A DNA stretch of 64,000 nucleotides from a virus (IMGVR_UViG_3300028920_000040:32001-96000); one strand, 5' to 3'. Counted from the stretch's first letter, positions 26,212 to 61,872 are shown. Notes: a model not told the origin generated them from the sequence alone. Made by a program: numbers and translations.

Positions 26212-27486
26212 ATGAGATTTGCTTCTTATTACTATTTAAGAGAGGATACACGTCCTCTCTTTTTATTAGAAGGGGGTGCTTACGGGCACCTGACACATCC
26301 CTTCGAAGATATTGATCTTACATTTGAAGATGTTAAAAAGATGATCAAAGCAGGTCTTCGCGGTGAGTTAAAAACTACACAAGAAAAAACAGACGGGCAA
26401 AATTTACTTGTAACATGGAAAGACGGCCGTCTTCACGCCGCTAGAAATAAAGGACATCTTAGAAACTTTGGTAGAGATTCTTTAACAAGAGAAGAATTAG
26501 AAAGTTTCTTTGAAGGAAGAGGCGCAATTAAAGATGCTTTTTCTTTTGCAATGCGCGATCTTGAAAATGCTCTCAATGCACTACCAGACGAAAAGACAGA
26601 CGAAATGTTTGGTAATGGTAAAAAGTTTATGTCTATTGAGATCATTTATCCTGAAACAGAAAATGTTATTCCTTATGAAACAGAAATGATTATTCCTCAT
26701 GGTTTAATAGAATTTGATGAAGAGGGAAATTCTATTTCAGAAGATAAAGAATCTGCAAGAGAATTATTTAAAACAATACAGAAGACAAATGCAGACATAC
26801 AAAAGACATTTAAGCTTCGCCCTCCACATGATATTGAAGGACTTAAGGTTGTAAGGTCCGATGATACAGAAAAACAATTATTTGATATAATAAATAAACG
26901 TATTGCAAAATTTGGTCTTTCTGATAAGGATACTATTGGAAGATATGTAGAAGAATATTTTGAAAAGATAATAGAAGAAAAAGCAGATAGTTTTGATTAT
27001 GATATTCCAAGACATGTTGCAAACGAAATAGTAACAAGATGGGCTAGAAACGATAAGTCATATGGAATCTCTCAAATCAAAAAAGATATAGATAATAAAG
27101 AATTTAAAGAGTGGTTCTCCGCAAATGATAAACATGCTGGTGAAGAAGTTAATAATTCTTTATATTGGCTTAAGAAAATCTTTAGAATATTTGGTGTTGA
27201 GTTGTTAAAGAATATGACAAAATTCTTGGCATTAAATCCTCAAGATGCTTCTAAAAAGATTAAGGAAAAGTTAGATAAAGAAATTGAAGAAATTAAATCT
27301 AGTAATGATGAAGGAGCTATAAAGAAGCTTGAAGCTCTTTTGAAAAAATTAGATGATATTGGTGGTTTTGATTCTGTAATTCCTACTGAAGGAATAACAT
27401 TCTTTTATAATGGCAAACTTTATAAAATTACTGGTGGATTTGGTCCTATTAATCAAATTCTTGGAATAAGGAAGTTTGCAAGATGA
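26212..27486 (+). CDS. putative ligase-like covalent nucleotidyltransferase (KxDG)
   Basis: QEKTDGQN resembles ligase motif I, PTEGITF motif IV and LYK motif V. CTS-like N-terminus MRFASYYYLRE. Confidence 0.5.
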   Translation: MRFASYYYLREDTRPLFLLEGGAYGHLTHPFEDIDLTFEDVKKMIKAGLRGELKTTQEKTDGQNLLVTWKDGRLHAARNKGHLRNFGRDSLTREELESFFEGRGAIKDAFSFAMRDLENALNALPDEKTDEMFGNGKKFMSIEIIYPETENVIPYETEMIIPHGLIEFDEEGNSISEDKESARELFKTIQKTNADIQKTFKLRPPHDIEGLKVVRSDDTEKQLFDIINKRIAKFGLSDKDTIGRYVEEYFEKIIEEKADSFDYDIPRHVANEIVTRWARNDKSYGISQIKKDIDNKEFKEWFSANDKHAGEEVNNSLYWLKKIFRIFGVELLKNMTKFLALNPQDASKKIKEKLDKEIEEIKSSNDEGAIKKLEALLKKLDDIGGFDSVIPTEGITFFYNGKLYKITGGFGPINQILGIRKFAR

Positions 27487-27941
27487 CAATTTTAGAAAAC
27501 GTACAATTAATACTTGATAAGAAAAATGATCCTTTAAGAGACGATGGTATCATAGAAATTCGTGGTAAAAATATAATTGATGATGAAAATCTTGATTATA
27601 AAAAACTTGGAGGAAATGTTTCTTTCGATCCAATTGAAATAAAGTTTCTTGAAAAAGAATATCATTTTAAGCCAATAAAAATAGGTAAATCTTTTGCTGA
27701 ATGGGTTTGGTCAGACGAAGAAAACAAAAAAACGATTGTAAGAGTTACTAAAAAAAGTTGGAAAGGAAAGTCTGGAAAATACATATATGATGTATCTCAA
27801 TCCGGATCAGTTGAAAAGTGGCAAGATAAACATAAGAATAAGTTTCTTAGTGTAGATAGAGATGTATTTTCAACTCCATTTGATGAACCTAGTAAAAACG
27901 CATTTAGAAAATTTTTAAATACAGTAGGAATATTTGAATGA
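27483..27941 (+). CDS. hypothetical protein
   Basis: ATGA-coupled to its neighbours. Confidence 0.6.
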   Translation: MTILENVQLILDKKNDPLRDDGIIEIRGKNIIDDENLDYKKLGGNVSFDPIEIKFLEKEYHFKPIKIGKSFAEWVWSDEENKKTIVRVTKKSWKGKSGKYIYDVSQSGSVEKWQDKHKNKFLSVDRDVFSTPFDEPSKNAFRKFLNTVGIFE

Positions 27942-28528
27942 AATTTCAAAAGTTTTATGAATCAAAAAAGAAAACTCCTGTAGTAGTATTTGCAGGACGT
28001 TTTCAGCCTTTTCATGTCGGTCATAAAGAAACTTATGATAATTTAGTTGAAAAGTTTGGAAAGGATAATGTTTATATAGCAACTTCTAATAAAGTAGAAT
28101 TGCCAAAATCTCCTTTTAGATTTGCTGAAAAAAGAAAAATTATAAGGAAGATGTTTAAGATTCCTTCTGATAAAATAGTTCAGGTTAAAAATCCATATGC
28201 TCCTTTAGAAGTATTAGAAAAATATCCTAAAAATTCTGCATATGTTGCTGTTGTTGGAAAGAAAGATGCTGATCGATTGATGAAGGGCAAATATTTTGAT
28301 ATGTATAAGGACGATATTCCCCTTGATAAATACGAAGATAAAGGTTATATTTACGTGGCTCCACAAAATACAAAGTTCTTTAATGGAAAGCGTATCACAG
28401 GAACTCTTGTAAGAGAGGTATTGAAGGATGGTTCAGCCGAAGATAAGATGGATTTATTTAATGAACTATATCCAAAATTTAATCAGGAAATATTTGATTT
28501 AGTAATAAATAAAATTAGAGGAGAATAG
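27938..28528 (+). CDS. HIGH-family nucleotidyl(cytidylyl)transferase
   Basis: VVVFAGRFQPFHVGH; ITGTLVR is equivalent to the SSTxxR motif. Confidence 0.8.
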   Translation: MKFQKFYESKKKTPVVVFAGRFQPFHVGHKETYDNLVEKFGKDNVYIATSNKVELPKSPFRFAEKRKIIRKMFKIPSDKIVQVKNPYAPLEVLEKYPKNSAYVAVVGKKDADRLMKGKYFDMYKDDIPLDKYEDKGYIYVAPQNTKFFNGKRITGTLVREVLKDGSAEDKMDLFNELYPKFNQEIFDLVINKIRGE

Positions 28529-28529
28529 A

Positions 28530-45888: not shown

Positions 45889-45896
45889 TATAAATA
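45889..45896 (+). promoter_or_regulatory. T4-type late promoter TATAAATA heading the CTS-gene block
   Basis: Exact motif 38 nt upstream of the ATG at 45934. Overlaps an AT-only inverted repeat (45890-99 / 45911-20). Confidence 0.65.
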
Positions 45897-51372: not shown

Positions 51373-51394
51373 ATATAAAATATGGAGAATAATT

Positions 51395-51550
51395 GTGAAA
51401 AAAATTAAATCTTATTTAGACGAAAAACTTTTTGGTGGAAAAAAGTCAGATGTTGAAGTTATTGCTAAGGCAATATCTAAAATAATTAAAGATAAAGCTA
51501 AGGATGCGGGAATTGATCCTAAGGAAATACTTCATTATATCAAGGTATAA
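51395..51550 (+). CDS. 51-aa protein inside the array (not in ORF track)
   Basis: GTG start after GGAG; (M)KKIKSYLDEKLFGG...ILHYIKV*. Confidence 0.55.
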   Translation: MKKIKSYLDEKLFGGKKSDVEVIAKAISKIIKDKAKDAGIDPKEILHYIKV

Positions 51551-51554
51551 TTAT

Positions 51555-52880: not shown

Positions 52881-54021
52881 AGAATACTATAATTTAAACG
52901 AAAGATTTGGTCTTGATGCGATGTACGTTCCTCCAAAGGATAAGCAGTATCAATTATATGACTTCTATGCATTATCATTAATTAATCCAAATGCTTTTAT
53001 GGATGAAGAAGCTAAGGATTATTTTAAACAAGCCAAAGAATCAATCATAGATGCAACATATAAAGACTTTGTTAATGCTTTATTCTTTTCTATTGCATCA
53101 GAGATTTTTCATATGGAAGACTCTGCATACTTTTCTCGATTGAATCGAAAAGATATAAAAGATTTTTATAATCTTACTGATAAAGAAATGAAATTTGTAG
53201 AAAAAATGTTTGAAGACAACAGTGCAAAATCTAGAGAAGAAAGAAATAAAATAGTAAGACATGAATTTTCCCCACAAGAACTTGCTAACTTTGCAACGAA
53301 AATATTTGCTGGTAATCCAAAAGCATCTCACGAAGTTGGAGAAAATGATATGTGGGAAGAAGGGTATGGTGGAAAAGCATGGTGGAATATTGCTAAAGGA
53401 TATAATAGACTGCTTAATGCAAAATCCATACCAGATAAAATGGTTGCTATAGATCATGTATATGATTTACAACACAACTCTAATACTGTATTTGATAAGG
53501 TACGAGATTATTATAAGAGCGGGTATTCTTGGCTAAAAGATTCATTAGACGATAAAGCACAAATTAAAGACCCACACGTTTATATTGATAAAACATCTCC
53601 TCAATTGTTTAGACCTTTAGCTTACGCTTTTAAACAGTTATATGGAAAGACTATTGAATCTTTTAAAAAAGAACAATCAGAAAAATATGAAAAAGATATT
53701 ATAGAGTTTATGGATAAAAACGGAATTGATCATTCGCTTTCGTTTTTAGTTGATGGTTTTTTTGACGCACTAGAATTTTTAAATAAATATAAAACAGAAA
53801 TGGGACTTTCAAAAGAATGGATTGAAAATCGAAAATTTAGGTTTAAATATAGTTTAATAGATCAAAATCAAAACAATATAGAAGGTGGTATAAACTTTAT
53901 AATAGATTTAATTGAACAACATGTTAATATGGCTAATATACCATCGTCAGAATCAAAGATAATTATTGATAAATTAGAAGATATTATTAATAAGTTATCA
54001 AATTTAAATTATTTTAAATAA
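52870..54021 (+). CDS. paralogue array member 5 (subfamily A)
   Basis: ERFGLDAMYVPP..IDHVYDLQHN core. Confidence 0.8.
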   Translation: MNFKEYYNLNERFGLDAMYVPPKDKQYQLYDFYALSLINPNAFMDEEAKDYFKQAKESIIDATYKDFVNALFFSIASEIFHMEDSAYFSRLNRKDIKDFYNLTDKEMKFVEKMFEDNSAKSREERNKIVRHEFSPQELANFATKIFAGNPKASHEVGENDMWEEGYGGKAWWNIAKGYNRLLNAKSIPDKMVAIDHVYDLQHNSNTVFDKVRDYYKSGYSWLKDSLDDKAQIKDPHVYIDKTSPQLFRPLAYAFKQLYGKTIESFKKEQSEKYEKDIIEFMDKNGIDHSLSFLVDGFFDALEFLNKYKTEMGLSKEWIENRKFRFKYSLIDQNQNNIEGGINFIIDLIEQHVNMANIPSSESKIIIDKLEDIINKLSNLNYFK

Positions 54022-54042
54022 TAAAATTAAAGGTATAATTAT

Positions 54043-55206
54043 ATGAATTTTAGAGAACATTACTTTACTCTTTTGGAAAGATTTGGTCTTGATGCCATGT
54101 ATGTTCCTCCAAAGGATAAGCAGTATCAATTATATGACTTCTATGCATTATCATTAATAAATCCATATGCTTTTTTGGATGAAGAAGCACAAGACTATTT
54201 TAAGCAGGCTAAAGAAGCAATTATAAATGAGACATATAAAGATTTTATTGACGCAGTATACTTTTCTCTTGCTTCTGAATTATATCATATAGGTGATGCC
54301 AGTACATTTCCTGATATGACAGACTCAGAAATAAAAGATGCAGGAATTAATCTTACTCCTAAAGAAAAAAATACTCTAATTAAATTAAAATATATTGATG
54401 ACTTCATTGATGATATTCCAGATAGAGTAACAAGAAATGATGAAATGAGAAATATATTTTCTCCAATAGAAATGGCTAATTTTGCAATAAAAATTTTTCA
54501 AGAGAATATATGGGAAGACGGTTTCGGCGGTAAAGCTTGGCAGGATATTGCTAAGGGATATAAAAGATTAGTTAATGCAAAATCCATGCCAGATAAAATG
54601 GTTGCAATTGATCATGTTTACGATCTTCAACATAATAATGATACTGTATTTGATAAGGTACAAGAATATTATAACGCCGATAAGGGCGGATATAGATGGT
54701 TAAAGAATGCTCTTGATGATAAAGCACGAATTAAAGAACCTCATGTTTATCTAGATAAAACATCTCCTCAATTATATAGACCTCTTGCATATGCTTTTAA
54801 AGAACTTTATGGAAAAACTCTTGAGGGGTTTAAATATGAGCAAGAGCAAGAGCATAAAAAAAGAACATCTGATTATATGAAAAAATGGAATGTCGAACCA
54901 GAATATAAAAATATCATTGAAAAATATTTAAATGCTTTAGATATACTTAAAAAATATAATGTTGTTAATGATTCTTGGGCAAAAGATAGATTAGATATAC
55001 TTGGTATTAATTTAAAAAATCTAAACATTTTTAAAGATAAATTAACTACATTAGAGAAAGATCGCACTATTAGAAATATTAATGGTATTATTGAAAGTAC
55101 AATATCTATGTTTATTATGGAACAAAATGACTCTATACCAGATAGAGTAGCACAAGAACAAATTAATATATTAAAATCTTTAGTCTTAGAAATACCAGAC
55201 GAATAA
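54043..55206 (+). CDS. paralogue array member 6 (subfamily A)
   Basis: ERFGLDAMYVPP..IDHVYDLQHN core. Confidence 0.8.
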   Translation: MNFREHYFTLLERFGLDAMYVPPKDKQYQLYDFYALSLINPYAFLDEEAQDYFKQAKEAIINETYKDFIDAVYFSLASELYHIGDASTFPDMTDSEIKDAGINLTPKEKNTLIKLKYIDDFIDDIPDRVTRNDEMRNIFSPIEMANFAIKIFQENIWEDGFGGKAWQDIAKGYKRLVNAKSMPDKMVAIDHVYDLQHNNDTVFDKVQEYYNADKGGYRWLKNALDDKARIKEPHVYLDKTSPQLYRPLAYAFKELYGKTLEGFKYEQEQEHKKRTSDYMKKWNVEPEYKNIIEKYLNALDILKKYNVVNDSWAKDRLDILGINLKNLNIFKDKLTTLEKDRTIRNINGIIESTISMFIMEQNDSIPDRVAQEQINILKSLVLEIPDE

Positions 55207-55220: not shown

Positions 55221-56753
55221 ATGAATTTTAGAGAACACTACTATAAAGACGGTAGATTTATGATGCCGATCTGGTATGACATTGCAACTATTAATGAAGA
55301 TGGTTGTATTGAGATGTCTATACCTCATCATTTCTTTCCTGTACTTGTTGAGAATAAAGTTATTAGACTTCGTATAAAAGATCAAGAATTTAATAACATG
55401 GACGAGGCTATTCAATATCACGATAGTCTTATGGAAAAGAAAGGATCAAAAACAAAGAGTGGTGTAGTGTGGGTAGACTCTAAAGGTAATAAAAGAAGCT
55501 TTGAAGTAGTTGCTGACAATATTAAAATAGGTGCTGACACGATTATTCTTAATATGTCTACTGCTCATAAGTGTATGTCTGCTATGCTTGGTATGTGTCC
55601 TTTGGGCGGGAAGTGTTATGCAATTTCTAAAGAAAAAAGATTTGACGCCGCTTTAGCTGGAGATAAAAGACAGGAAGAACAATGGTCCTGTATGACTCCC
55701 GAAGCTATTGCACAAGGTATTAAAGACCTTGCCGCGGCCGATCCCGGTATTAAATATGTAAGATTAAATGAAGCTGGCGAATTTAGAAATTTACCAAAAG
55801 GAAAAGAACTTCTTTCCAAGATGGATAAACAGGCACAAGGACAAGTTGCTAAGGCCGCTTGGGCAGATGTTGATGATATTTCCAAGTTAAAAAAGATTGC
55901 TTCATTAGTTCCCGAATTAAAATTTTATACATATACGCATAGAAAAGATTTACAGGAAGAACTAAAAGGACTTGGAAAAAATATTGTTATTAATGGATCG
56001 GGATTCATGGTAGATAATGCGTTCATGCCTATTGAACTTAATGAATATCTTCCTATTATTGATGGTATTCTTGCTAACAGATATAAAGTTGTTAATGGAG
56101 AAAAAGTTTCTCCTAACAAGGCAACAGAGTGTATTGGAGACTGTAGAGTATGTGATAAATGCAAAGTTGCAAGAGAAATGAATATCTATCTTCCTATTCA
56201 TGGTGCTGGTACAGAAAAACAAAAAGCATTGGATAAAATTAAGAAAAAAGTTATTGGAAATCCTGCTTTTAATAAAATATTAATGGCTGATATTACAGAC
56301 GATGAAAAGGTTGAACAATTGCTTGATATAGTTGGAATAGAAGATAAAGAAATGATTAATAAACTTAAACCTCTTGTAAGACAAAGGAAAGGATTCTTTA
56401 AGAAACTTCTCAATTCAGAAAAATCAAAAGTAGATTTTATTAGTGCAATTGCTTCATATATAGAATCAGACGACGAACCAACAGCCGCCGAAGTTGCAAA
56501 AGAACCTTCTCAATTAGAAAAACAAAAAGCATTAGCCGCTTCTGTTGACGCTCTTATGGGAAGACTAAGATCAAATCTTGAGGCAGCGAGATCAAAAGGA
56601 CAGACAACCGGTGCAAAGAAATGGCAGAATTTTATAAAGACAATAGATAATATTATAGACAAAGCCAGGTCTGGCGAAGATATTAAACCTACTGGTGCAA
56701 TTGCAAAAGAACTTGGAAAAGATATCAAAAGAACTTTTAAGGGAGTTTCATAA
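55221..56753 (+). CDS. GP88-like Cys-rich protein (radical-SAM-like Fe-S motifs)
   Basis: C..C..CYA, YVRLNEAGEF, FYTYT and CIGDCRVCDKC resemble the phage gene-88 family. Confidence 0.55.
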   Translation: MNFREHYYKDGRFMMPIWYDIATINEDGCIEMSIPHHFFPVLVENKVIRLRIKDQEFNNMDEAIQYHDSLMEKKGSKTKSGVVWVDSKGNKRSFEVVADNIKIGADTIILNMSTAHKCMSAMLGMCPLGGKCYAISKEKRFDAALAGDKRQEEQWSCMTPEAIAQGIKDLAAADPGIKYVRLNEAGEFRNLPKGKELLSKMDKQAQGQVAKAAWADVDDISKLKKIASLVPELKFYTYTHRKDLQEELKGLGKNIVINGSGFMVDNAFMPIELNEYLPIIDGILANRYKVVNGEKVSPNKATECIGDCRVCDKCKVAREMNIYLPIHGAGTEKQKALDKIKKKVIGNPAFNKILMADITDDEKVEQLLDIVGIEDKEMINKLKPLVRQRKGFFKKLLNSEKSKVDFISAIASYIESDDEPTAAEVAKEPSQLEKQKALAASVDALMGRLRSNLEAARSKGQTTGAKKWQNFIKTIDNIIDKARSGEDIKPTGAIAKELGKDIKRTFKGVS

Positions 56754-57175
56754 TGTCATTTAAAGATTATTTAAAGAAAAAATTAAATGAAGGCAAATAT
56801 GATAATACTAATTTAGCCGATCCAAATAGTTATTATAAAGTAATAGACTCCTTTGATGTATTTGTAAAAACCGGGTCAAGTCATGCTAATACTTATTATG
56901 GAAGTGGAGAAATTCTTAAGTCTGTTTGGAAGAAAATGTCAGCAGAACCCGGATATGAAATTCATAATCTCATGGGAGGTACATATATAATTCCAACAGA
57001 TACGGACGACTTGGTTGCATGGAAAGTTTTAATAAAAGAACCAGAGTTTGCTCCTTTTGTAAAAAAGTATTATCCAGACCAACAGGTATTTCCTCTTGAT
57101 AAATTAGAACAAATATCTAAAGAAGAAGCATTATCAGGAGTTGATTATATTGATAAAATGGAGATTACAAAATGA
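56753..57175 (+). CDS. hypothetical protein with CTS-like N-terminus
   Basis: Starts MSFKDYLKKKLNE. Confidence 0.65.
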   Translation: MSFKDYLKKKLNEGKYDNTNLADPNSYYKVIDSFDVFVKTGSSHANTYYGSGEILKSVWKKMSAEPGYEIHNLMGGTYIIPTDTDDLVAWKVLIKEPEFAPFVKKYYPDQQVFPLDKLEQISKEEALSGVDYIDKMEITK

Positions 57176-57750
57176 AATTTGCTATGTTCTACGAACAGGA
57201 AATTGACGACTGGCGTGAGAGAAAAGTGTGGCACATCACACCAACAGGCCAAAGAAATCATGTTAAGATAAAAAGTCTTTCTCCAGAAGAACAAGAAAAA
57301 TATAAGCCGGCTTTACTCGATCTTCATGTTAAAAAGAAAAAGAAAAGTGCTGAAAATAAAAATCCTGAGAAAAAGGAAAAGGAGAAAAAAGCTTCAGCCG
57401 GAGAAATTTTAGACCCGGACCTTCTAGATTTTTATTATATTATAAATAGTCCTGAAGATATCGATAAGATAGAAAAAGGAAAATTAATTAAGGCTACTGA
57501 TCTTTCAAGTAAAGCAATAGAATGGTCTGGCGACGATAAATACATAGTTAGTGTATCAAATGTTCCTATTAAGGCTGTTGTGCTTTATAAGAATGATGAA
57601 GGAGAAATGGTACATTTTCCTGAGAATATGAAGACGCACGACAAATATGAATTTATTAAGTTTCAAGAAAACGACGAGTTTCTTTTAAACTTATTTCCAT
57701 TTTTAGAACAAATAACAATTAAACTTTCAGATAAGGAAGAAAAAAAATGA
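57172..57750 (+). CDS. hypothetical protein with CTS-like N-terminus
   Basis: Starts MKFAMFYEQE; coupled overlaps with neighbours. Confidence 0.6.
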   Translation: MKFAMFYEQEIDDWRERKVWHITPTGQRNHVKIKSLSPEEQEKYKPALLDLHVKKKKKSAENKNPEKKEKEKKASAGEILDPDLLDFYYIINSPEDIDKIEKGKLIKATDLSSKAIEWSGDDKYIVSVSNVPIKAVVLYKNDEGEMVHFPENMKTHDKYEFIKFQENDEFLLNLFPFLEQITIKLSDKEEKK

Positions 57751-57956
57751 GCTTAAAAAATTTTCTTATTCAAAAATTAAATGAAGATGATGGCATACCA
57801 AGACCACCAACAGAAAGTGAAAAAGGTTCTATGCAAGCATTATTTAATACTTGGCGTAATATAGGAAGAGGTCTAGCAGATGATCACATGCCTCTTGATA
57901 TTGTAGAAACAGTTGTAAGATATTTAGAAGATTGTGGTTATATTAAAGGAGAATAA
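57747..57956 (+). CDS. small hypothetical protein with CTS-like N-terminus
   Basis: Starts MSLKNFLIQKLNE. Confidence 0.6.
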   Translation: MSLKNFLIQKLNEDDGIPRPPTESEKGSMQALFNTWRNIGRGLADDHMPLDIVETVVRYLEDCGYIKGE

Positions 57957-57957
57957 A

Positions 57958-58233
57958 ATGAATAGCAAATCTTTTCAGCAGTATTTAAACGAAGACATTT
58001 ATGCAAATGCACTTAGAAAAAAATTAACCCCAGAAGAAATTAAAAGGATTGACAGTTTTGTTGATAGTGAAGGAGAAGAGTGGGACGATCTTGAAGGCGA
58101 TCTTTATGATAAACTCATGGATTTCTTTGCTGATGAAATGCCATATGGTGTTATGAAAGCAAGAACTGGTGATCCTATGGAATGGATGTACGATAAATTC
58201 ATATCAATGGGATTTGGAACAAGAGTAAAATAA
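57958..58233 (+). CDS. small hypothetical protein with CTS-like N-terminus
   Basis: ATG at 57958 after AGGAG; starts MNSKSFQQYLNE. Confidence 0.6.
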   Translation: MNSKSFQQYLNEDIYANALRKKLTPEEIKRIDSFVDSEGEEWDDLEGDLYDKLMDFFADEMPYGVMKARTGDPMEWMYDKFISMGFGTRVK

Positions 58234-58234
58234 T

Positions 58235-58798
58235 ATGACTTTCAAAGATTTTTATCTTGACGAAAAGATGGCGAGGTGGAACCTACCTAAAAAGAAATGG
58301 GTATCTTTACCATTGGAAGAACTTAATGATGATATGAAACAACTTCTTTGGAGAATGTATTCGGATTCATATAGTCGTCAAGGACTTGCTTTGAATACAA
58401 AAAATATTAATGAATTGGTTGATAAATATAAAGTTTCCTGGTTCATTGATGTTGATACAGATACTACACCAGAAGCATTTATAATTTATAGAGAATCACC
58501 AGTAGGCAATAAAATTGCTCTTTTAGGAACAGACGATAACCGTCTTTCAAAAAGACTTCTTGTAAGAAAGTTAATTTCTCTTTTAAGAAAGCCAGGTTGG
58601 TATATAGAAGCCTCCCATAAGATTGCAGACATTATTGAGAATAAGGGTGGCAAATGGATTGACGACGAAGAAAAGGTTAAAAAGATTCTTGCTCCTGCGG
58701 AAATAGATGAATGGCTTGGTGATGGAAGATATAAAAGAACACTTAAAGGAACAAATATAGAAGTTACAAAAAGACTCTATGGTAATCCAAGAGGATAA
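58235..58798 (+). CDS. hypothetical protein with CTS-like N-terminus (possible GNAT-like fold)
   Basis: Starts MTFKDFYLDE. The fold guess is weak. Confidence 0.55.
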   Translation: MTFKDFYLDEKMARWNLPKKKWVSLPLEELNDDMKQLLWRMYSDSYSRQGLALNTKNINELVDKYKVSWFIDVDTDTTPEAFIIYRESPVGNKIALLGTDDNRLSKRLLVRKLISLLRKPGWYIEASHKIADIIENKGGKWIDDEEKVKKILAPAEIDEWLGDGRYKRTLKGTNIEVTKRLYGNPRG

Positions 58799-58807
58799 GG
58801 AGTAGAT

Positions 58808-59074
58808 ATGAAATATCAAGATTATTTGACAAAACTATTAAAAGAACAATCAAAAGAAGAAACTAAAATTAATGAGCTTGAAGAAGAAATTTCTGATTTG
58901 ATTTGGAGATATGATCCTGAAGGAGAGGATAATTTTTTTGATGACGACTTAGATAAAATCAAAAAGATTAAAAATCCAAAATCAAAAATTAAAGCACTTG
59001 AAAGATTAATTTCAGATATCAAATGGCGATATGATCCTGAAGGGGAAGACGAAAATAATTTTTTTGATGATTAA
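58808..59074 (+). CDS. small protein with internal duplication
   Basis: ISDxxWRYDPEGED..NFFDD occurs twice; starts MKYQDYL. Confidence 0.65.
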   Translation: MKYQDYLTKLLKEQSKEETKINELEEEISDLIWRYDPEGEDNFFDDDLDKIKKIKNPKSKIKALERLISDIKWRYDPEGEDENNFFDD

Positions 59075-59094
59075 ATATAGTAAAGAAAAATATA

Positions 59095-59223
59095 ATGTCA
59101 TTTAAAAAATATTATAATACAGATATAAATTATAAAATAAATTTAGAAAATGCTCAACGATTATATGGAAATTTAGTTCCTTGGGAGTTAGATAAAAAAG
59201 TTGCTAATAAATTAAGAGGATGA
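59095..59223 (+). CDS. 42-aa ORF with CTS-like N-terminus (not in ORF track)
   Basis: MSFKKYYNTDINYKINLENAQRLYGNLVPWELDKKVANKLRG*. Confidence 0.5.
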   Translation: MSFKKYYNTDINYKINLENAQRLYGNLVPWELDKKVANKLRG

Positions 59224-59239
59224 TGAAAGGAGAATTGTT

Positions 59240-59449
59240 ATGAATTTTGTTAAAAAGTTTTTTAAGAAATTGGCTAAAAAAATTCTTATTAAAAAGATTG
59301 AAGACGAGAAATTTCAAGAAGAAATTACTAAGAAGATTAGAGAAAAGATTGAAATTCCTAATGTAGATGAGAAAGAAGAAGAAAAATTTGTCAATCAGAT
59401 TTATGATGCATTACAGGAATTGCTTGTAGGTATTGTAGAGGATATTTAA
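59240..59449 (+). CDS. small hypothetical protein
   Basis: AGGAG RBS; amphipathic N-terminus MNFVKKFFKKLAKK. Confidence 0.6.
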   Translation: MNFVKKFFKKLAKKILIKKIEDEKFQEEITKKIREKIEIPNVDEKEEEKFVNQIYDALQELLVGIVEDI

Positions 59450-59451
59450 TA

Positions 59452-59853
59452 ATGTCATTTAAAGCTTATTTAAAAGAAAGAGTATTACTTGAAGGTATTA
59501 AACCTATAAAGAATGCTGTTATGAAAAGAACTCATAAGATTGTTAATGCTTTAAATGATTCTGATGAAGAACAGAAACTTAGATGGAATGTCGGTAAGAT
59601 AGATTTTGGTGGAGTTCCTACAGAATTTCTTTTTACTACTGCAGATATAAATGGTAAAGACTATACTTTCTTTTCATATAATGCAGGCGGTGGATCAAGC
59701 ATTGTTGCATGGAATTATATAACTCCAAGTTCTTCTCCCTCTTTTGATGGAACTGAAGGACAGTTACCAGCAACAGATAAATATCAAGACGATCTTTCGG
59801 ATGATGATTTAGAAGAAATTAAAAAAGTGTTTGAAAAAATAAAGAGCAAATAA
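59452..59853 (+). CDS. hypothetical protein with CTS-like N-terminus
   Basis: Starts MSFKAYLKERVLLE. Confidence 0.65.
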   Translation: MSFKAYLKERVLLEGIKPIKNAVMKRTHKIVNALNDSDEEQKLRWNVGKIDFGGVPTEFLFTTADINGKDYTFFSYNAGGGSSIVAWNYITPSSSPSFDGTEGQLPATDKYQDDLSDDDLEEIKKVFEKIKSK

Positions 59854-59854
59854 A

Positions 59855-59908
59855 ATGAAGTTTGAGGAATTTTACATGAAAGAAAATAAAAAGGAGAATC
59901 AAAAATGA
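59855..59908 (+). pseudogene. 17-codon remnant consisting of a CTS-like leader only
   Basis: MKFEEFYMKENKKENQK*; ATGA overlap with the 59905 ORF. Confidence 0.4.
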
Positions 59909-60276
59909 GCTTTAAAAAGTATTTAAATGAAAAAAATCATTTAAAAGAATCCAGATTTTATAAGAGTCAAAAAGTTATATATAAAGACGAGCCATATATT
60001 ATAACTAAAACTATTGCGCCGCCCGAGGGACATGGTTGGTATCATAGTGAACTATATGTCATAATTCAACCAGAAGCTGGCGGTGAAGAAATTAAAGTAG
60101 ATACTGATGAGCTAACTCCTATTGAATCAGATGATAAAGATTTATTATCTAAAAAGGAATTAGTCAAAAAAATATCTTCATTGGCTGCCAAATCAAGATA
60201 TGAGTTAGAAAAAAAATCATTAGGTATTGATATAGACATGATTAATTTTAATGAACTTATGAGTATGATGAAATAA
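59905..60276 (+). CDS. hypothetical protein with CTS-like N-terminus
   Basis: Starts MSFKKYLNE; AGGAG RBS. Confidence 0.65.
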   Translation: MSFKKYLNEKNHLKESRFYKSQKVIYKDEPYIITKTIAPPEGHGWYHSELYVIIQPEAGGEEIKVDTDELTPIESDDKDLLSKKELVKKISSLAAKSRYELEKKSLGIDIDMINFNELMSMMK

Positions 60277-60280
60277 TATT

Positions 60281-60433
60281 ATGAACTTTAAAGACCATTA
60301 TTTAAAAGAAGCTGGTGAGAAAAATGATATATTATATCATACCACCCTTGCTGCGACCGTCCCAAAGATATTAGAAGACGGAATAATTTATCCAACACCA
60401 GAAACATTTAAGGCATTAGCACAAAGACATTAA
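60281..60433 (+). pseudogene. 50-aa CTS-bearing ORF resembling a truncated ART-fold N-terminus
   Basis: MNFKDHYLKEAGEKNDILYHTTLAATVPKILEDGIIYP...; LYHxT...IL..G resembles ADP-ribosyltransferase strand 1. TAATG overlap with cca. Confidence 0.45.
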
Positions 60434-61872
60434 TGAGATTCTCAACATTTTATACAACACACTTCTTACTTGAAGCTGGTACCTTCTCCGATTGGAAAGG
60501 CTACGTGGAGAGAACTCCCGAGCTTAAAAATGCGGTAGAAGTAATGCAGAAGATAGATGCGAAAGGAAAAGACATTCGCAGCTATGTTGTGGGTGGTGCT
60601 GTTCGTGATATCGTTATGGGTAGAGATTTTAATGATGTTGATATCGCAACCAATCTTCCTATATCAGAAATCGAAAAGATGTTCAAGACTCATGATATTG
60701 GAAAGAATAAAGACTTTGGTATTGTTGTTGTTGATTACAAAGGCGATGTATTTGAAATTGCAAACTTCCGTCAGGATGGTGCATACCTTGATGGTCGCAG
60801 ACCAGAAGATGTAAAGATCGTTATGAGTTTCGAAGACGATGCCGGCCGCAGAGACTTTACTGTCAATGCAATGGGTATCGACAAAGACGGAAATGTTATA
60901 GACTTCTTTGACGGAAAGAAAGATATCAAAGACAAAGTAATTAAAACTGTTGGTGATCCTAATAAAAGATTCGCAGAAGATTATTTAAGAATGTTAAGAG
61001 CCATTCGTTTTGGTTCTAAACTTGGTTTCCGTATTGACGATGATACCATGAAGGCTATCAAATCCAAATCGCATAAGATAAAAGATATTGCTGTCGAAAG
61101 AGTTATGAAAGAAGTCATTAAGATGGCAGAACAGGAAGGATCAAAGTTTGCAGATGCAATCATAACATTGAAAGATGCAGGACTTCTTCAATATATCTTT
61201 CCTGAAATTATAGAAATGGATTCTTTCGAACATTCAGTAGAACATCATCCAGAAGGAAATGTTCTTCAACATACATTGGCCGCACTTAAATCAAGCAATA
61301 GTAAAGACCCATTGGTTAATCTTTCTATTCTGTTTCATGATGTGGGCAAACTAAAGACACATGAAGTAGATGAAAAAGGTCTGCATAGATATTTTGGTCA
61401 TGCTGAAGAGGCTAGAGAAATCATTGAGAATCTTGCAAAGAGACTTAAGCTCGACAATGAAACCAAGAATGCAATGCTATATTCAGCAATCAATCATATG
61501 AAGTTCCACGACTTCCTGAAGATGAGCAACTCCAAGATAATGAGTTTGATGGGAGATGATAACTGGGATTTACTTTATCAAGTTGCATTGGCCGATGCTA
61601 AGGCTCGTGGAGAGGCATTTGATGAGGAAGAATGGAAAAAGATTACTGATAAGATAGATGATCTTACCGCCAAATATAAATCCAAAAAGGCTATAGATAA
61701 TATAAGAAAGATAGTTAATGGCAGAATGGTCATGGACTTATTGAATATGAAAGGTGGTCCTGAGCTTGGTAGAATTATAAATACTACTATTGAATGGATA
61801 TTGGACAACAATATAGACCTTAATGATATAGACAAAATAAAGGAATTTATAATATCGCAAAGGGGCGAATGA
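60433..61872 (+). CDS. cca: CCA-adding tRNA nucleotidyltransferase with HD domain
   Basis: YVVGGAVRD, DVDIAT, RRDFTVNAM, EDYLRMLRAIRF; HD domain HHPEG..HT..FHDVGK. Confidence 0.88.
   Translation: MRFSTFYTTHFLLEAGTFSDWKGYVERTPELKNAVEVMQKIDAKGKDIRSYVVGGAVRDIVMGRDFNDVDIATNLPISEIEKMFKTHDIGKNKDFGIVVVDYKGDVFEIANFRQDGAYLDGRRPEDVKIVMSFEDDAGRRDFTVNAMGIDKDGNVIDFFDGKKDIKDKVIKTVGDPNKRFAEDYLRMLRAIRFGSKLGFRIDDDTMKAIKSKSHKIKDIAVERVMKEVIKMAEQEGSKFADAIITLKDAGLLQYIFPEIIEMDSFEHSVEHHPEGNVLQHTLAALKSSNSKDPLVNLSILFHDVGKLKTHEVDEKGLHRYFGHAEEAREIIENLAKRLKLDNETKNAMLYSAINHMKFHDFLKMSNSKIMSLMGDDNWDLLYQVALADAKARGEAFDEEEWKKITDKIDDLTAKYKSKKAIDNIRKIVNGRMVMDLLNMKGGPELGRIINTTIEWILDNNIDLNDIDKIKEFIISQRGE

What the first reader, a model, noticed from the sequence alone, without database searches (positions are those of the whole stretch)
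26212..61872. Possible pre-packaged RNA/translation repair kit: ligase-like enzyme, PNK-like kinase, CCA/HD enzyme and tmRNA
Seen: a KxDG ligase-like protein (26212), a PNK-type P-loop kinase (C-terminus of 45934) and a CCA-adding enzyme with HD domain (60433) all carry the CTS-like leader, and a tmRNA lies at 45517. Known: T4 Pnk plus Rnl1 repair tRNA cut by PrrC; CCA-enzyme HD domains can remove 2',3'-cyclic phosphates; tmRNA rescues ribosomes on broken mRNA. Inference: healing, sealing and CCA-repair enzymes may be delivered from the virion, so repair can start even when host anticodon nucleases or toxins block translation. The ligase call is the weakest link.
Basis: inference. Interest (0 to 1): 0.7.

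Follow-up and report, generated by a model that had tools for sequence, protein, structure and literature searches.

The report
Capsid-tagged RNA repair enzymes in phage
An uncultured T4-like phage puts a copy of T4's "load me into the head, then cut me off" tag on about thirty proteins, including an RNA-ligase-shaped enzyme, an RNA 5'-kinase and a tRNA CCA-repair enzyme, so it may inject a ready-made RNA repair kit, but no experiment has tested this.

Summary
All four features are present at the stated coordinates. The tmRNA is certain (Rfam 132.7 bits). The protein at 60433 is a CCA-adding enzyme with an HD domain. The C-terminus of the protein at 45934 is a Pnkp/T4-Pnk-type polynucleotide kinase. 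Its model nevertheless matches RNA ligases best, and the KxDG, E and EG...K motifs are invariant.

The leader is a protein-level signal. It occurs on 29 of 175 genes, against a mean of 1.9 after shuffling. It resembles T4's capsid targeting sequence, and the genome encodes a T4-type prohead protease.

The strongest new evidence comes from relatives. Single leader-tagged ORFs join kinase + NMNAT-like transferase + ligase-like domain in 13 of 80 loci, or CCA/HD + NMNAT-like + ligase-like in 1-2 of 80. This links the enzymes functionally.

Packaging, cleavage, injection and RNA repair are all inferred. The tmRNA is a neighbouring gene, not virion cargo. Earlier notes of this scan describe the same enzyme triad in other marine T4-like phages.

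The parts
24520..25911 (+). 463-aa highly acidic/lysine-rich low-complexity protein with a leader-like start (MSFGFLEYLKDYQNE). It is the first large gene of the first leader block.
   Evidence: no Pfam family above cut-off
26212..27486 (+). Ligase-like covalent nucleotidyltransferase of an undescribed family. It has the leader MRFASYYYLRE and a second h-x-E site (LLE20) just before the conserved GGAYGH. Motifs: KxDG at K59, E143, E393-G394, K402/K405. A helical insertion of about 185 residues (~200-385) sits between the N-terminal and C-terminal strands of the nucleotidyltransferase fold.
   Evidence: no Pfam/PHROG/NCBIfam hit; AF2 pLDDT 83.6 with residues 1-24 disordered; best structural matches are RNA ligases; invariant columns
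27483..27941 (+). 152-aa protein of unknown function between the ligase-like and NMNAT-like genes.
   Evidence: no family
27938..28528 (+). NMNAT-like HxGH nucleotidyltransferase with a short leader (MKFQKFYE). It is the counterpart of the domain fused N-terminally to the ligase-like domain in relatives.
   Evidence: CTP_transf_like 2e-7; phrog_395 2.2e-15; NMNAT NCBIfam models 2.9e-8 to 1e-7, below cut-offs; phmmer 8.8e-27 to the L035 fusion segment
28530..29018 (+). 162-aa leader-bearing protein (MSFKDYFRKKIDE), function unknown.
45517..45866 (+). tmRNA gene, tag AEEYSYAMAA. The 3' end reads ...CAGGTCC-A-TTA, so the CCA is not encoded and must be added after transcription.
45889..45896 (+). 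TATAAATA, a T4-late-promoter-like motif 38 nt upstream of the kinase gene, at the head of the large leader block.
   Evidence: that T4 late promoters have this consensus is recalled
45934..46959 (+). Three-part protein: leader MNFRDYYFTE; a conserved ~125-aa module (residues ~12-133) that in other phages is joined to portal, MuF and prohead-protease proteins and to varied enzymes; and a Pnkp-type polynucleotide 5'-kinase domain (residues ~189-340).
46970..47293 (+). 107-aa leader-bearing protein (MNFKDYLDE).
47341..55206 (+). Six tandem paralogs (383-465 aa) of unknown function, all starting with the leader (MNFREHYFT.. type). A seventh paralog outside the window (genome 113180-114496) lacks the leader.
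   Evidence: (phrog_20946)
55221..56753 (+). 510-aa GP88-like protein with the leader core (MNFREHYY) but no h-x-E site within 20 residues.
56753..60433 (+). Run of about 12 small leader-bearing ORFs (42-192 aa), functions unknown.
60433..61872 (+). CCA-adding enzyme (class II head + RNA-binding domain) with a C-terminal HD/HDIG domain, preceded by a ~28-residue extension holding the leader MRFSTFYTTHFLLE.
   Evidence: 78 of its 120 best homologs carry the leader pattern
61872..64000 (+). Further small leader-bearing ORFs (MDKFKKYLDKKINE, MNKFKDYLDNKLNE, MNKFKDYLDKKINE and looser variants). The block runs on to about window 64050.

Best explanation
The window belongs to a distant T4-like myovirus (a 124-kb fragment, about half complete). 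About thirty mostly unrelated proteins begin with a 9-14-residue propeptide of the T4 capsid-targeting-sequence type.

The most likely mechanism is as follows. The propeptide docks each protein into the scaffolding core of the prohead. The T4-type prohead serine protease (Peptidase_S77) then cuts after the Glu of the hydrophobic-x-Glu site. The mature proteins stay in the DNA-filled head and enter the cell with the DNA.

The cargo includes four nucleic-acid end-processing enzymes that work together:
- a new-family RNA-ligase-fold lysine nucleotidyltransferase (26212);
- its NMNAT-like HxGH nucleotidyltransferase partner (27938);
- a Pnkp-type polynucleotide 5'-kinase (45934);
- a CCA-adding enzyme with an HD phosphoesterase domain (60433).

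The proposed job is to heal and reseal tRNA or other RNA ends. The kinase would phosphorylate 5'-OH ends. The HD domain would open 2',3'-cyclic or 3'-phosphate ends. The CCA enzyme would rebuild 3' ends. The ligase would seal. All of this could start at the first moment of infection, before phage genes are expressed.

Shown here: the folds and families, the leader statistics, the presence of the protease, and the domain fusions in relatives.

Inferred: packaging, cleavage, injection, RNA as the substrate, and the role of the NMNAT-like enzyme.

The tmRNA is a separate, ordinarily transcribed phage gene. Its only concrete link to the set is that its gene lacks an encoded CCA end.
For: T4-type head module: Portal_T4 2.6e-100, Peptidase_S77 3.7e-22, T4_CASP 5.5e-19, Gp23 5e-84.

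The leader:
- It is found on 29 of 175 genes, 25 of them in two blocks of 37 genes (p 2.5e-17). Shuffled N-termini gave a mean of 1.9 and a maximum of 7.
- Conservation is at the protein level. Ser2 is coded by AGT, AGC, TCA and TCT. TAT/TAC, GAT/GAC and TTA/CTT all vary, and the upstream DNA differs between genes.
- In T4 the first 10 residues of IPIII are sufficient for targeting. Residues 4 and 7 matter for targeting and residues 8 and 10 for processing (PMC9026906, passages of section 2.6). The window's MNKFKDYL...E and MNFREHYFTE types put aromatic/hydrophobic residues and a Glu in a matching arrangement.
- The leader is an add-on. Residues 1-24 of the ligase model are disordered. CCA-enzyme alignments start at residue 29-30. 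One paralog (genome 113180) and a few CCA homologs lack it.
- It is conserved on relatives: 78 of the 120 best CCA homologs, and 29 of 47 ligase-containing ORFs with a defined N-terminus.

Late-promoter-like TATAAATA motifs head both leader blocks. Nine of 19 genomic copies end within 40 nt upstream of a start codon, all in the structural/leader part of the genome.

Ligase fold:
- Foldseek's top rows are RNA ligases (best E 2.1e-3, probability up to 0.96).
- VIA-align gives Trl1-LIG 6n67 Z 8.7 (rmsd 4.6, 203 aligned) and T4 Rnl1 Z 8.0.
- In an unbiased search of 48,161 chains, ranks 1-10 are all polynucleotide ligases, 9 of them RNA ligases (Z 8.4-6.7, 175-196 residues aligned).

Functional linkage through fusion:
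- Of the 24 longest ligase ORFs, 8 are leader + AAA_33 kinase + CTP_transf_like + ligase-like, 1 is PolyA_pol + RNA-binding + HD + CTP_transf_like + ligase-like, and 1 is HD + CTP_transf_like + ligase-like.
- Across the 80 loci, the kinase segment lies in the same ORF as the ligase in 13. It is a separate nearby ORF in 7 loci; in 4 of these the match is strong and the ORF carries a leader.
- The CCA and HD segments of the L072 fusion hit the window's 60433 protein at 1.9e-29 and 8.9e-13.

Kinase: see the observation check. Its N-terminal module resembles, by predicted structure, modules on portal, MuF and prohead-protease proteins (TM 0.72-0.84).

In print: NMNAT-like/cytidylyltransferase proteins were detected in CsCl-purified virions of four cyanomyoviruses (PMC10665884 and PMC9602691 passages, PMC9146016 Table 1). 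My translation of the S-SZBM1 protein starts MRFRQFIIE. It matches 27938 at E 2e-7 over the HxGH region.
Against: - There are no proteomic, cleavage or injection data for this phage or for any carrier of the ligase-like family.
- The papers that found NMNAT-like proteins in virions themselves note that abundant soluble proteins may survive CsCl purification.
- The structural Z scores (about 8) are in the range that the tool says can arise without true kinship. The case rests on the uniformity of the hit list together with the invariant motifs.
- The lysines of the presumed motif V are spaced K-x-x-K (K402, K405). Known ligases, as I recall, have K-x-K.
- In the window the three enzymes lie 19 and 34 kb apart and are only 3 of about 30 tagged proteins.
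- Within 10 kb of the ligase-like gene in 80 related loci, a homolog of the window's own kinase was found in 0 and of its CCA enzyme in 2.
- The fused kinase shows no pairwise similarity to the window's kinase.
- An NMNAT-like enzyme has no known role in RNA healing and sealing.
- No 2H or DxDxT end-healing domain was found in the held half of the genome.
- The HD domain's phosphoesterase activity is assumed from the E. coli enzyme (recalled). The match to the 'multifunctional CCA addition/repair' model scores 154.8 bits against a cut-off of 451.
- The overall count of TATAAATA (19) is about what base composition predicts.
Confidence: 0.45

Rival explanations
1. The tagged enzymes are packaged and injected, but the core module (P-loop kinase + NMNAT-like transferase + ligase-like enzyme) acts on NAD or nucleotide pools rather than on broken RNA. 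One example would be NadR-style salvage (kinase then adenylyltransferase) to rebuild NAD+ against NAD-depleting defences. In that case the ligase-like enzyme would use NAD+ or adenylylate a non-RNA target.
For: - The HxGH domain's best named matches are NMN adenylyltransferases: NCBIfam models at 2.9e-8 to 1e-7 for 27938, and PDB NMNATs at 0.013-0.015 for the fusion.
- It is fused to the ligase-like domain in 49 of 79 relatives, far more often than the kinase (13) or CCA/HD (1-2).
- The same contig encodes NAD synthase, a phosphoribosyltransferase and a Nudix protein.
- The cyanophage papers interpret virion NMNAT-like proteins as NAD regulators.
Against: - The ligase-like fold matches RNA ligases best, not NAD-dependent DNA ligases.
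- The fused kinase and the window kinase both match phrog_505 'polynucleotide kinase'. The window kinase's PDB hits are all polynucleotide kinases.
- A CCA-adding/HD module fused to the same NMNAT-ligase pair (L072) points to tRNA ends.
- All NMNAT matches are below the family cut-offs.
Confidence: 0.2
2. The leader is not a capsid address. The enzymes act in the cytoplasm during infection, maturing and maintaining phage and host tRNA and tmRNA and keeping translation running. The shared N-terminus would serve another common purpose, such as timed proteolysis or assembly into some other complex.
For: - The tmRNA gene lacks an encoded CCA, which gives the CCA enzyme an ordinary maturation job.
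- The contig also encodes untagged RNA and translation enzymes: Thg1-like, PTH2 and RlaP-like.
- CCA-adding enzymes and tmRNAs in huge phages are read in print as translation support (PMC7162821 passages).
- In T4 itself, Pnk and Rnl1 are not virion proteins (recalled).
Against: - The leader's pattern and its h-x-E end match the T4 targeting and processing rules.
- The leader genes sit beside structural genes, behind late-promoter-like motifs.
- A leader-bearing 131-aa protein lies in the head gene cluster (genome 13134).
- The kinase carries a module otherwise seen on portal, MuF and prohead-protease proteins.
- A homologous superfamily member with the same kind of leader has been detected in virions.
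Confidence: 0.25
3. The shared N-termini are a by-product of recent gene duplication or chance, and carry no common function.
For: Six of the tagged genes are tandem paralogs, and several small tagged ORFs resemble each other (62143 and 62487).
Against: - The tag sits on proteins of unrelated folds: ligase-like, HxGH transferase, P-loop kinase, CCA/HD and GP88-like.
- Its frequency far exceeds shuffled controls.
- It is kept on homologs in other contigs at 48-66% identity.
- One paralog lacks it.
Confidence: 0.03

Closest known systems
Phage T4 capsid targeting sequence (CTS) and internal proteins IPI-III and Alt, processed by prohead protease gp21
   Same: Both have a short N-terminal propeptide shared by otherwise unrelated proteins. 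Both have aromatic/hydrophobic positions followed by a hydrophobic-x-Glu processing site. The genome encodes T4-type portal, protease, scaffold and capsid proteins.
   Different: This phage has about 30 tagged genes, against a handful in T4. The cargo includes large enzymes (up to 510 aa here, and 1,469-aa multi-enzyme fusions in relatives). The leader sequence itself differs from T4's. No packaging data exist.
T4 Pnkp + Rnl1 tRNA repair (counter to the PrrC anticodon nuclease), and bacterial Pnkp-Hen1 / Pnkp1-Rnl-Hen1 systems
   Same: A polynucleotide 5'-kinase domain whose only PDB sequence hits are Pnkp1, CthPnkp and T4 Pnk, plus an OB-less RNA-ligase-fold enzyme.
   Different: There is no DxDxT or metallophosphoesterase healing domain and no Hen1. 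The ligase belongs to no described family and has a ~185-residue helical insertion inside the nucleotidyltransferase fold. The enzymes carry capsid-type leaders, whereas T4's are ordinary cytoplasmic gene products (recalled).
Fungal/plant tRNA ligase Trl1 (ligase + kinase + cyclic phosphodiesterase in one chain)
   Same: It gives the best structural match to the ligase-like domain (6n67 Z 8.7; 9qw7 Z 8.4). Relatives of the window protein likewise join a P-loop kinase and a ligase domain in one polypeptide.
   Different: The domain order is reversed (kinase first, ligase last). An NMNAT-like domain lies in between. There is no 2H phosphodiesterase. Sequence identity is 11-12%.
Multifunctional CCA addition/repair enzyme (E. 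coli type, with HD domain)
   Same: Class II head, RNA-binding and HD/HDIG domains. NCBIfam PRK10885 matches over profile positions 2-329 of 409.
   Different: The score is below the family cut-offs (154.8 against 451 bits; best model PRK13299 scores 252 against 290). It carries a 28-residue leader extension that is shared by 78 of its 120 closest homologs.
Virion-associated NMNAT-like/cytidylyltransferase proteins of cyanomyoviruses (S-CBWM1, S-SZBM1, S-SCSM1, S-CREM2)
   Same: HxGH nucleotidyltransferase of a T4-like phage. The S-SZBM1 protein starts with a CTS-like leader and was detected in virions.
   Different: Similarity to 27938 is limited to the HxGH region (E 2e-7, 67 residues). In the window's lineage the domain is usually fused to the ligase-like domain.
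Phage-encoded tmRNAs (huge phages; marine methylophage)
   Same: A standard one-piece tmRNA that matches RF00023 end to end.
   Different: Nothing unusual apart from the missing encoded CCA. No SmpB was found in the held 124 kb.

Membership tests
T4-type CTS cargo (internal/ejected head proteins) | The genome encodes a T4-type prohead core protease and scaffold. | tested here: met
   Peptidase_S77 3.7e-22, T4_CASP 5.5e-19, Portal_T4 2.6e-100, Gp23 5e-84
T4-type CTS cargo (internal/ejected head proteins) | A ~10-residue N-terminal propeptide, shared by unrelated proteins, that ends in a protease site (hydrophobic-x-Glu). | tested here: met
   29 of 175 genes against a shuffled mean of 1.9; protein-level conservation; T4 rules from PMC9026906 passages
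T4-type CTS cargo (internal/ejected head proteins) | The protein is present in virions with the propeptide removed, and is ejected into the host. | not testable with these tools
   The only indirect support is in print: NMNAT-like proteins in cyanomyovirus virions.
ATP-dependent RNA ligase (covalent lysine nucleotidyltransferase superfamily) | Nucleotidyltransferase fold. | tested here: met
   Ranks 1-10 of 48,161 chains are ligases, Z 8.4-6.7 with 175-196 residues aligned. Foldseek's best E is 2.1e-3. The Z values are modest.
ATP-dependent RNA ligase (covalent lysine nucleotidyltransferase superfamily) | Motifs I (KxDG), III, IV (EG) and V (lysines) in order and conserved. | tested here: inconclusive
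   K59-x-D61-G62, E143, E393-G394 and K405 are invariant, and K402 is at least 90% conserved. Assigning them to motifs III-V is by order and pattern only. K402/K405 are spaced K-x-x-K.
ATP-dependent RNA ligase (covalent lysine nucleotidyltransferase superfamily) | Membership of a described sequence family (Rnl1, Rnl2, Rnl3, Rnl5, Trl1). | tested here: not met
   No Pfam, PHROG or NCBIfam hit. No PDB sequence or profile hit to any ligase.
ATP-dependent RNA ligase (covalent lysine nucleotidyltransferase superfamily) | Lysyl-AMP formation and RNA end joining. | not testable with these tools
   Requires a biochemical assay.
Polynucleotide 5'-hydroxyl kinase (T4 Pnk / bacterial Pnkp kinase domain) | A P-loop kinase domain with sequence similarity to characterised polynucleotide kinases. 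| tested here: met
   PDB: 4xrp 3.2e-6, 4gp6 3.5e-6, 1ly1 8.4e-3; all 6 hits are PNKs. TIGR04075 1.3e-11 over profile 10-152 of 851, below the whole-protein cut-off. phrog_505 3.9e-17.
Polynucleotide 5'-hydroxyl kinase (T4 Pnk / bacterial Pnkp kinase domain) | A linked 3'-end-healing phosphatase domain (DxDxT or metallophosphoesterase). | tested here: not met
   The rest of the 45934 protein is a non-catalytic-looking conserved module. The only HAD protein on the contig matches 5'(3')-deoxyribonucleotidases.
CCA-adding enzyme with HD domain | Class II nucleotidyltransferase head + RNA-binding domain + HD motif. | tested here: met
   PF01743 9e-31, PF12627 7e-13, PF01966 5e-4; HDIG 1.5e-4; PDB CCA enzymes 1e-48
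CCA-adding enzyme with HD domain | Scores above a curated equivalog cut-off. | tested here: not met
   The best, PRK13299, scores 252.3 bits against a cut-off of 290. CCA-adding, A-adding or poly(A) specificity therefore cannot be told apart from sequence here.
tmRNA (RF00023) | A full-length match above the gathering score, with a tag reading frame. | tested here: met
   132.7 bits against 47, model positions 1-374; tag AEEYSYAMAA
Healing-and-sealing RNA repair system (as an operon or fusion) | Kinase, end-healing phosphoesterase and ligase genetically linked. | tested here: inconclusive
   In the window they are 19-34 kb apart. In relatives, kinase + ligase share one ORF in 13 of 80 loci and CCA/HD + ligase in 1-2 of 80. 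The fused kinase is not the window kinase's close homolog.

The most novel reading that the evidence does not exclude
A large group of uncultured T4-like and huge phages may package a complete tRNA/RNA end-repair pathway in the capsid. The pathway would comprise a polynucleotide kinase, a CCA-adding/HD enzyme, an NMNAT-like transferase and a new family of RNA ligase. In some lineages it is made as one CTS-tagged polyprotein of up to 1,469 residues. The prohead protease might cut this into separate enzymes: a hydrophobic-x-Glu site sits directly before the ligase domain in 53 of 75 ORFs. The phage would then inject the enzymes with its DNA, so that tRNA-cutting host defences are neutralised before any phage gene is expressed.
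Probability: 0.3. Interest if true: 0.85.

Novelty: new variant of a known kind. Interest (0 to 1): 0.65.

Why it matters
T4's capsid targeting sequence is known for a few small anti-restriction proteins and Alt. RNA repair by Pnkp and Rnl1 is known as a response made after infection has begun. If enzymes of this kind are loaded into the head and injected, counter-defence against tRNA-cleaving abortive-infection nucleases would start at time zero. That is a different strategy from any described.

It would also:
- give a sequence rule for reading a phage's injected proteome from its genome;
- explain why nucleotidyltransferases keep appearing in cyanophage virion proteomes;
- define a widespread, uncharacterised ligase family (at least 1,376 database proteins, and 590 of 600 candidate stretches in viral contigs that encode a relative) with a fixed NMNAT-like partner whose chemistry is unknown.

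Tried and rejected
- Megablast of window 45000-62000 against the phage collection found no match.
- Sequence (phmmer) and profile searches of the 26212 protein against PDB sequences found no ligase. The best hits were unrelated, at E 0.03-0.2.
- The search for related loci with the single CCA protein in viral contigs confirmed no relative.
- tblastn of the ligase-like protein in the phage collection found only 3 records: two uncultured huge phages and Microcystis phage Mel-JY01. No paper mentions Mel-JY01.
- I suspected that S-SZBM1_141, which lies next to the virion-detected cytidylyltransferase and has KWDG and EG...K.K motifs, is the cyanophage counterpart of the ligase-like protein. Neither hhalign (probability 0.14) nor BLASTP (E 1.9) supports this, and the protein is not in that paper's virion table. 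I dropped the idea.
- The window kinase showed no significant pairwise or phmmer match to the kinase domain of the fusions. The only link is shared PHROG families.
- I considered the HAD protein at genome 20992 as a Pnkp-like 3'-phosphatase. It matches 5'(3')-deoxyribonucleotidases instead, and its N-terminus adds only about 4 residues.
- The ESM Atlas gave nothing usable on a member of the six-paralog family.
- SmpB was not found in the held contig, which is only about 48% complete.
- Look-ups of this scan's notes by place and by sequence returned nothing, as did one word look-up.
- A literature search for 'capsid targeting sequence' together with 'RNA ligase' and 'polynucleotide kinase' found only one unrelated T4 omics paper holding all three terms.
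- I did not use complex prediction or the second structure job.

Full report
WHAT THE WINDOW IS. The window is bases 32001-96000 of a single 123,835-bp viral contig. CheckV estimates the contig at about 48% complete. It has 32.7% G+C, and essentially all coding is on the + strand. Pfam finds T4-type baseplate proteins (gp53, gp5 OB domain, gp25) and a RegA translational repressor inside the window. Upstream lies a complete T4-type head module: Portal_T4 2.6e-100, prohead protease Peptidase_S77 3.7e-22, scaffold T4_CASP 5.5e-19, major capsid Gp23 5e-84, plus terminase, sheath, tube and gp15. The capsid protein is only about 33% identical to its nearest cultured relatives, the T4-like cyanophages, and megablast finds nothing in the phage collection. 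This is therefore a distant, uncultured T4-like myovirus.

The tmRNA matches Rfam RF00023 over the whole model (132.7 bits, E 1.1e-51). Its tag is AEEYSYAMAA. Its 3' end reads acceptor stem, then A, then TTA, so the CCA is not encoded.

The 60433 protein has the class II nucleotidyltransferase head, the RNA-binding domain and an HD/HDIG domain. Its best solved relatives are CCA-adding enzymes (1e-48). Their alignment begins at its residue 29-30, which leaves a 28-residue N-terminal extension. It falls just below NCBIfam's CCA equivalog cut-off (252 against 290 bits), so I take CCA specificity as likely but not proven.

The C-terminal 150 residues of the 45934 protein are a polynucleotide-kinase-type P-loop domain. 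All six PDB sequence hits at E<=0.01 are polynucleotide kinases of RNA repair systems or T4 Pnk. The best NCBIfam model is bacterial Pnkp (1.3e-11), and phrog_505 'polynucleotide kinase' scores 3.9e-17.

THE LIGASE CALL. It has no hit in Pfam, PHROGs or NCBIfam and no sequence or profile hit to any solved ligase. It does belong to a very large uncharacterised family: 1,376 proteins at E<=1e-3 among 8,000 scored, and 590 of 600 candidate stretches in viral contigs encode a relative.

In 24 aligned members the columns E58-K59-x-D61-G62-Q63, R78-N79, F139, E143, N151, P154-Y155, H163, E393-G394, F397 and Y404-K405 are invariant. An AlphaFold2 model built on that alignment is confident (mean pLDDT 83.6, pTM 0.75) except for residues 1-24.

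Foldseek found no match at E<=1e-3, but its top rows are RNA ligases: archaeal Rnl3 at 2.1e-3, T4 Rnl1 at 4.5e-3, and fungal Trl1. Re-alignment gave the Trl1 ligase domain Z 8.7 (rmsd 4.6, 203 residues), Naegleria RNA ligase Z 8.4, T4 Rnl1 Z 8.0 and Rnl2 Z 7.9. All 50 listed rows were ligases or capping enzymes. An independent search of 48,161 representative chains put polynucleotide ligases at ranks 1-10, nine of them RNA ligases (Z 8.4-6.7, 175-196 residues aligned). Unrelated short helical matches begin at Z 6.5.

The Z values alone are modest. The uniform hit list, the invariant KxDG lysine and the downstream acidic and EG...K motifs together make a ligase-type lysine nucleotidyltransferase the clear reading. 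There is no OB domain. Instead, about 185 mostly helical residues (~200-385) are inserted between the N-terminal strands and the two C-terminal strands that carry the EG and lysine motifs. I know of no such arrangement in described ligases (recalled).

THE LEADER. I scored every called gene for an N-terminal core (M, 1-2 residues, F/L/Y/I, two residues, Y/F/H/L, Y/F/L/I/Q) followed within 20 residues by hydrophobic-x-Glu. This finds 29 of 175 genes. Twenty-five of them lie in two blocks (window 24357-29018 and 45934-64100) that hold 37 genes (hypergeometric p 2.5e-17). Shuffling residues 2-20 of every protein 1,000 times gave a mean of 1.9 and a maximum of 7.

The tag sits on unrelated folds: the ligase-like protein, the HxGH transferase, the kinase, the CCA/HD enzyme, a GP88-like protein, six tandem paralogs and many small ORFs.

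Conservation is at the protein level. Ser at position 2 uses AGT, AGC, TCA and TCT. Tyr, Asp and Leu codons vary, substitutions are conservative, and the upstream ribosome-binding regions differ. This argues against an RNA element such as a RegA operator.

The tag is modular. One paralog outside the window starts a few residues after the predicted cut site, with no leader. A few CCA homologs start directly at the enzyme core.

The tag is also conserved across genomes. Seventy-eight of the 120 best homologs of the CCA enzyme (48-66% identical, many on contigs of 160-430 kb) match the same pattern. So do 29 of 47 ligase-containing ORFs whose N-terminus is defined.

COMPARISON WITH T4. A review of T4 head assembly states that the internal proteins have 10-19-residue N-terminal propeptides that target them to the core. 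It states that the first 10 residues of IPIII suffice, that residues 4 and 7 matter most for targeting and residues 8 and 10 for processing, and that foreign proteins fused to this sequence are packaged, at 20-200 copies, and delivered into cells (PMC9026906, passages of sections 2.6-2.7). Rao and Black describe the T-even internal proteins as diverse defence proteins that share only the CTS (PMC3012670, passages).

The window's MNKFKDYL...INE class has aromatic residues at positions 4 and 7, an aliphatic residue at 8, and a later I/L-x-E. The MNFREHYFTE class has aromatic residues at 3 and 7, a hydrophobic residue at 8 and Glu at 10. The genome encodes the matching protease family. The protease's own N-terminus fits the pattern. 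The capsid protein has an L-A-E site at residue 52, upstream of where the Gp23 profile begins. A leader-bearing 131-aa protein lies inside the head gene cluster.

TATAAATA occurs 19 times in the genome, about the number composition predicts. I recall this as the T4 late-promoter consensus. Nine copies end within 40 nt upstream of a start codon. All nine are in the structural and leader region, and they include the heads of both leader blocks.

One copy of each of the 29 tagged proteins adds up to 6,318 residues. Against the roughly 1,000 internal protein molecules of a T4 head, that is a modest load.

FUSIONS IN RELATIVES: THE MAIN NEW EVIDENCE. I fetched 80 viral-contig loci that encode the ligase-like protein and called ATG-initiated ORFs.

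In 49 of 79 loci the ligase-like domain is preceded in the same ORF by an HxGH nucleotidyltransferase motif. Twenty-three have other long N-terminal regions, and 32 of the 79 frames run open to a contig edge. Seven are short like the window's.

Pfam on the 24 longest ORFs gave the following:
- 8 with leader + AAA_33 kinase + CTP_transf_like + ligase-like (1,214-1,469 aa);
- 1 (L072, 1,442 aa) with leader + PolyA_pol head + RNA-binding + HD + CTP_transf_like + ligase-like;
- 1 with HD + CTP_transf_like + ligase-like, cut by the contig end;
- 12 with CTP_transf_like only;
- 2 with no Pfam family.

Using segments of two fusions as phmmer queries, the kinase segment lies in the ligase ORF in 13 of 80 loci. 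It is a separate nearby ORF in 7; in 4 of these the match is strong and the ORF starts MIKL[KI]DLLNE. The CCA and HD segments of L072 hit the window's 60433 protein at 1.9e-29 and 8.9e-13. The HxGH segment hits the window's 27938 protein at 8.8e-27.

Enzymes that are separate genes in the window are therefore domains of one leader-tagged polypeptide elsewhere, which is good evidence that they act together and in the same place.

Two cautions apply. The fused kinase has no significant pairwise similarity to the window's kinase; the two share only PHROG families 505 ('polynucleotide kinase') and 2071. CCA/HD fusions are rare (1-2 of 80).

Within 10 kb of the ligase gene, homologs of the window's own kinase and CCA enzyme were found in 0 and 2 of 80 loci.

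THE OVERLOOKED PARTNER. The gene at 27938-28528 encodes a 196-aa HxGH nucleotidyltransferase with its own short leader (MKFQKFYE). Its best named matches are NMN adenylyltransferases, all below cut-offs. It is the ligase-like domain's constant companion.

Proteins of this kind are in print as virion-associated. NMNAT-like or cytidylyltransferase proteins were detected by mass spectrometry in purified particles of cyanomyoviruses S-CBWM1, S-SZBM1, S-SCSM1 and S-CREM2. The authors suggest they are carried into the host, and they caution that abundant soluble proteins might co-purify (PMC10665884 and PMC9602691 passages; PMC9146016 passages and Table 1).

I translated the S-SZBM1 gene. It begins MRFRQFIIE, a CTS-like leader, and it matches 27938 at E 2e-7 over the HxGH region only. 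This supports the leader-to-virion logic for one member of the set. It says nothing direct about the ligase, kinase or CCA proteins. I did not read those papers' supplements.

A SECOND HINT THAT THE KINASE IS A HEAD PROTEIN. Residues ~12-133 of the 45934 protein form a module conserved at 60-80% identity in at least 621 database proteins. There it is joined to very different partners. By precomputed Pfam these include rubrerythrin/ferritin-like domains, DUF5661, S78-type prohead proteases, DUF5824, 2H (LigT-type) phosphoesterases and AAA_33 kinases. Only 5 of the 120 best hits carry a T4-like leader.

By predicted structure the module resembles domains attached to portal, MuF and prohead-protease proteins (TM 0.72-0.84 by query). 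Both sides of that comparison are predicted models, so it is a lead only. My inference is that this is a head-interior attachment module used by many phage types.

WHAT THE SET PROBABLY DOES. I commit to the following reading. The leaders are capsid-targeting propeptides (about 0.65). The four enzymes form one functional group acting on nucleic-acid ends (about 0.6, given the fusions). The substrate is broken or CCA-less tRNA or other RNA, repaired immediately on injection (about 0.35-0.4 overall).

The kinase and ligase-fold matches and the CCA/HD fusion point to RNA ends. The contig also encodes untagged Thg1-like, RlaP-like and PTH2 enzymes (RlaP begins MNYTEKFCTE, which is leader-like). 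The phage therefore invests heavily in tRNA maintenance.

The main rival keeps packaging but makes the kinase + NMNAT-like + ligase-like core an NAD or nucleotide module. NAD synthase, a phosphoribosyltransferase and a Nudix protein are on the contig.

A second rival denies packaging and sees ordinary cytoplasmic maturation enzymes. The tmRNA's missing CCA gives the CCA enzyme a routine job under that view.

The tmRNA is not part of any virion kit. It is an RNA gene lying between the stop codon of ORF 45244-45516 and the late-promoter-like motif before the kinase gene. Phage tmRNAs and CCA enzymes are already in print (PMC7162821 passages).

RELATION TO EARLIER NOTES OF THIS SCAN. A word look-up returned follow-up notes on other genomes that describe T4-CTS-like leaders on 9-24 proteins of uncultured T4-like and giant phages. 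Three of them (e1-5324518, e1-6006006, e1-5798442) name the same triad of ligase-like enzyme, nucleotidyltransferase and kinase. Later checks mark part of e1-5324518 and e1-5468953 as having fallen, but which part is not shown.

I used these notes only as leads. The pointer to virion proteomes led me to the papers, which I read myself. The scan has therefore seen this phenomenon before on other DNA. What this window adds is the tagged CCA/HD enzyme, the multi-enzyme fusion ORFs, the portal/MuF-type module on the kinase, and the neighbouring CCA-less tmRNA.

NOVELTY. The CTS mechanism, RNA healing-and-sealing, HD-bearing CCA enzymes and phage tmRNAs are each known. The following do not appear in the literature I could search: a CTS-type tag on a whole set of RNA-end enzymes, their fusion into tagged polyproteins, and the ligase-like family itself. 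I file this as a new variant of a known kind.

Noticed in passing
window 45934-46332 (residues ~12-133 of the kinase protein): This ~125-aa module (KYDHIDFKPPxSVAxxAxKGLEYR...) is conserved at 60-80% identity. In at least 621 database proteins it is joined to very different partners: rubrerythrin/ferritin-like domains, DUF5661, S78 prohead proteases, 2H phosphoesterases and kinases. By predicted structure it resembles domains on portal and MuF proteins. It may be a general head-interior attachment module.
   Followed up: partly
window 47341-55206, and genome 113180-114496 (L003:17180-18496): Six tandem leader-bearing paralogs of 383-465 aa match only phrog_20946 (unknown function). A seventh copy 26 kb downstream has no leader. 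The ESM Atlas gave no usable hit.
   Followed up: partly
L035:3142-7551, L072:706-5034 and 11 further viral-contig loci: Single ORFs of 1,101-1,469 aa (two cut short at the contig edge) chain together a leader, a kinase or CCA/HD module, an NMNAT-like domain and a ligase-like domain, with 190-470-residue stretches of unknown function in between. A repeated linker motif (..SVPYGSGYKK..) occurs in both fusion types. A hydrophobic-x-Glu site sits directly before the ligase domain in 53 of 75 ORFs, so the prohead protease might cut these as polyproteins.
   Followed up: partly
window 29288-40264: About 14 genes for glycosyltransferases, sulfotransferases, an FkbM methyltransferase, an NAD-dependent epimerase, a DegT aminotransferase and a Nudix protein split the two leader blocks. 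A second sugar-modification cluster lies at genome 5.4-12.6 kb. None of these genes carries the leader.
   Followed up: no
window 24520-25911: A 463-aa protein made largely of Glu/Asp and Lys runs has a leader-like start. It may be a polyelectrolyte internal head protein.
   Followed up: no
genome 100616-103759 and 120127-120573 (L003:4616-7759; L004:4127-4573): Further RNA and translation maintenance genes lie outside the window: an RlaP-like nucleotidyltransferase (starts MNYTEKFCTE, leader-like), NAD synthase, a Thg1-like tRNA 5'-end enzyme and PTH2 peptidyl-tRNA hydrolase. A patatin, a phosphoribosyltransferase and an IMPDH/GMP-reductase gene are nearby.
   Followed up: partly
window 62810-64050, and 27483: A looser second N-terminal pattern recurs on small ORFs at the end of the block and on the 152-aa protein between the ligase-like and NMNAT-like genes: MSIIDHLDKHIK, MSILEHIQKSIDK, MTFLEGIQEILDK and MTILENVQLILDK.
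   Followed up: no
window 2642-10681 and 40501-45099: Two very large proteins (2,679 and 1,532 aa) have no Pfam family. The second is Gly/Thr/Asn-rich and repetitive, which looks fibre-like.
   Followed up: no
L007:7478-8671 (Synechococcus phage S-SZBM1, gene 141): A 397-aa protein next to the virion-detected cytidylyltransferase has KWDG and EG...K.K motifs and an HLEHLED start reminiscent of the window's GHLTHPFED. No significant similarity could be shown.
   Followed up: yes
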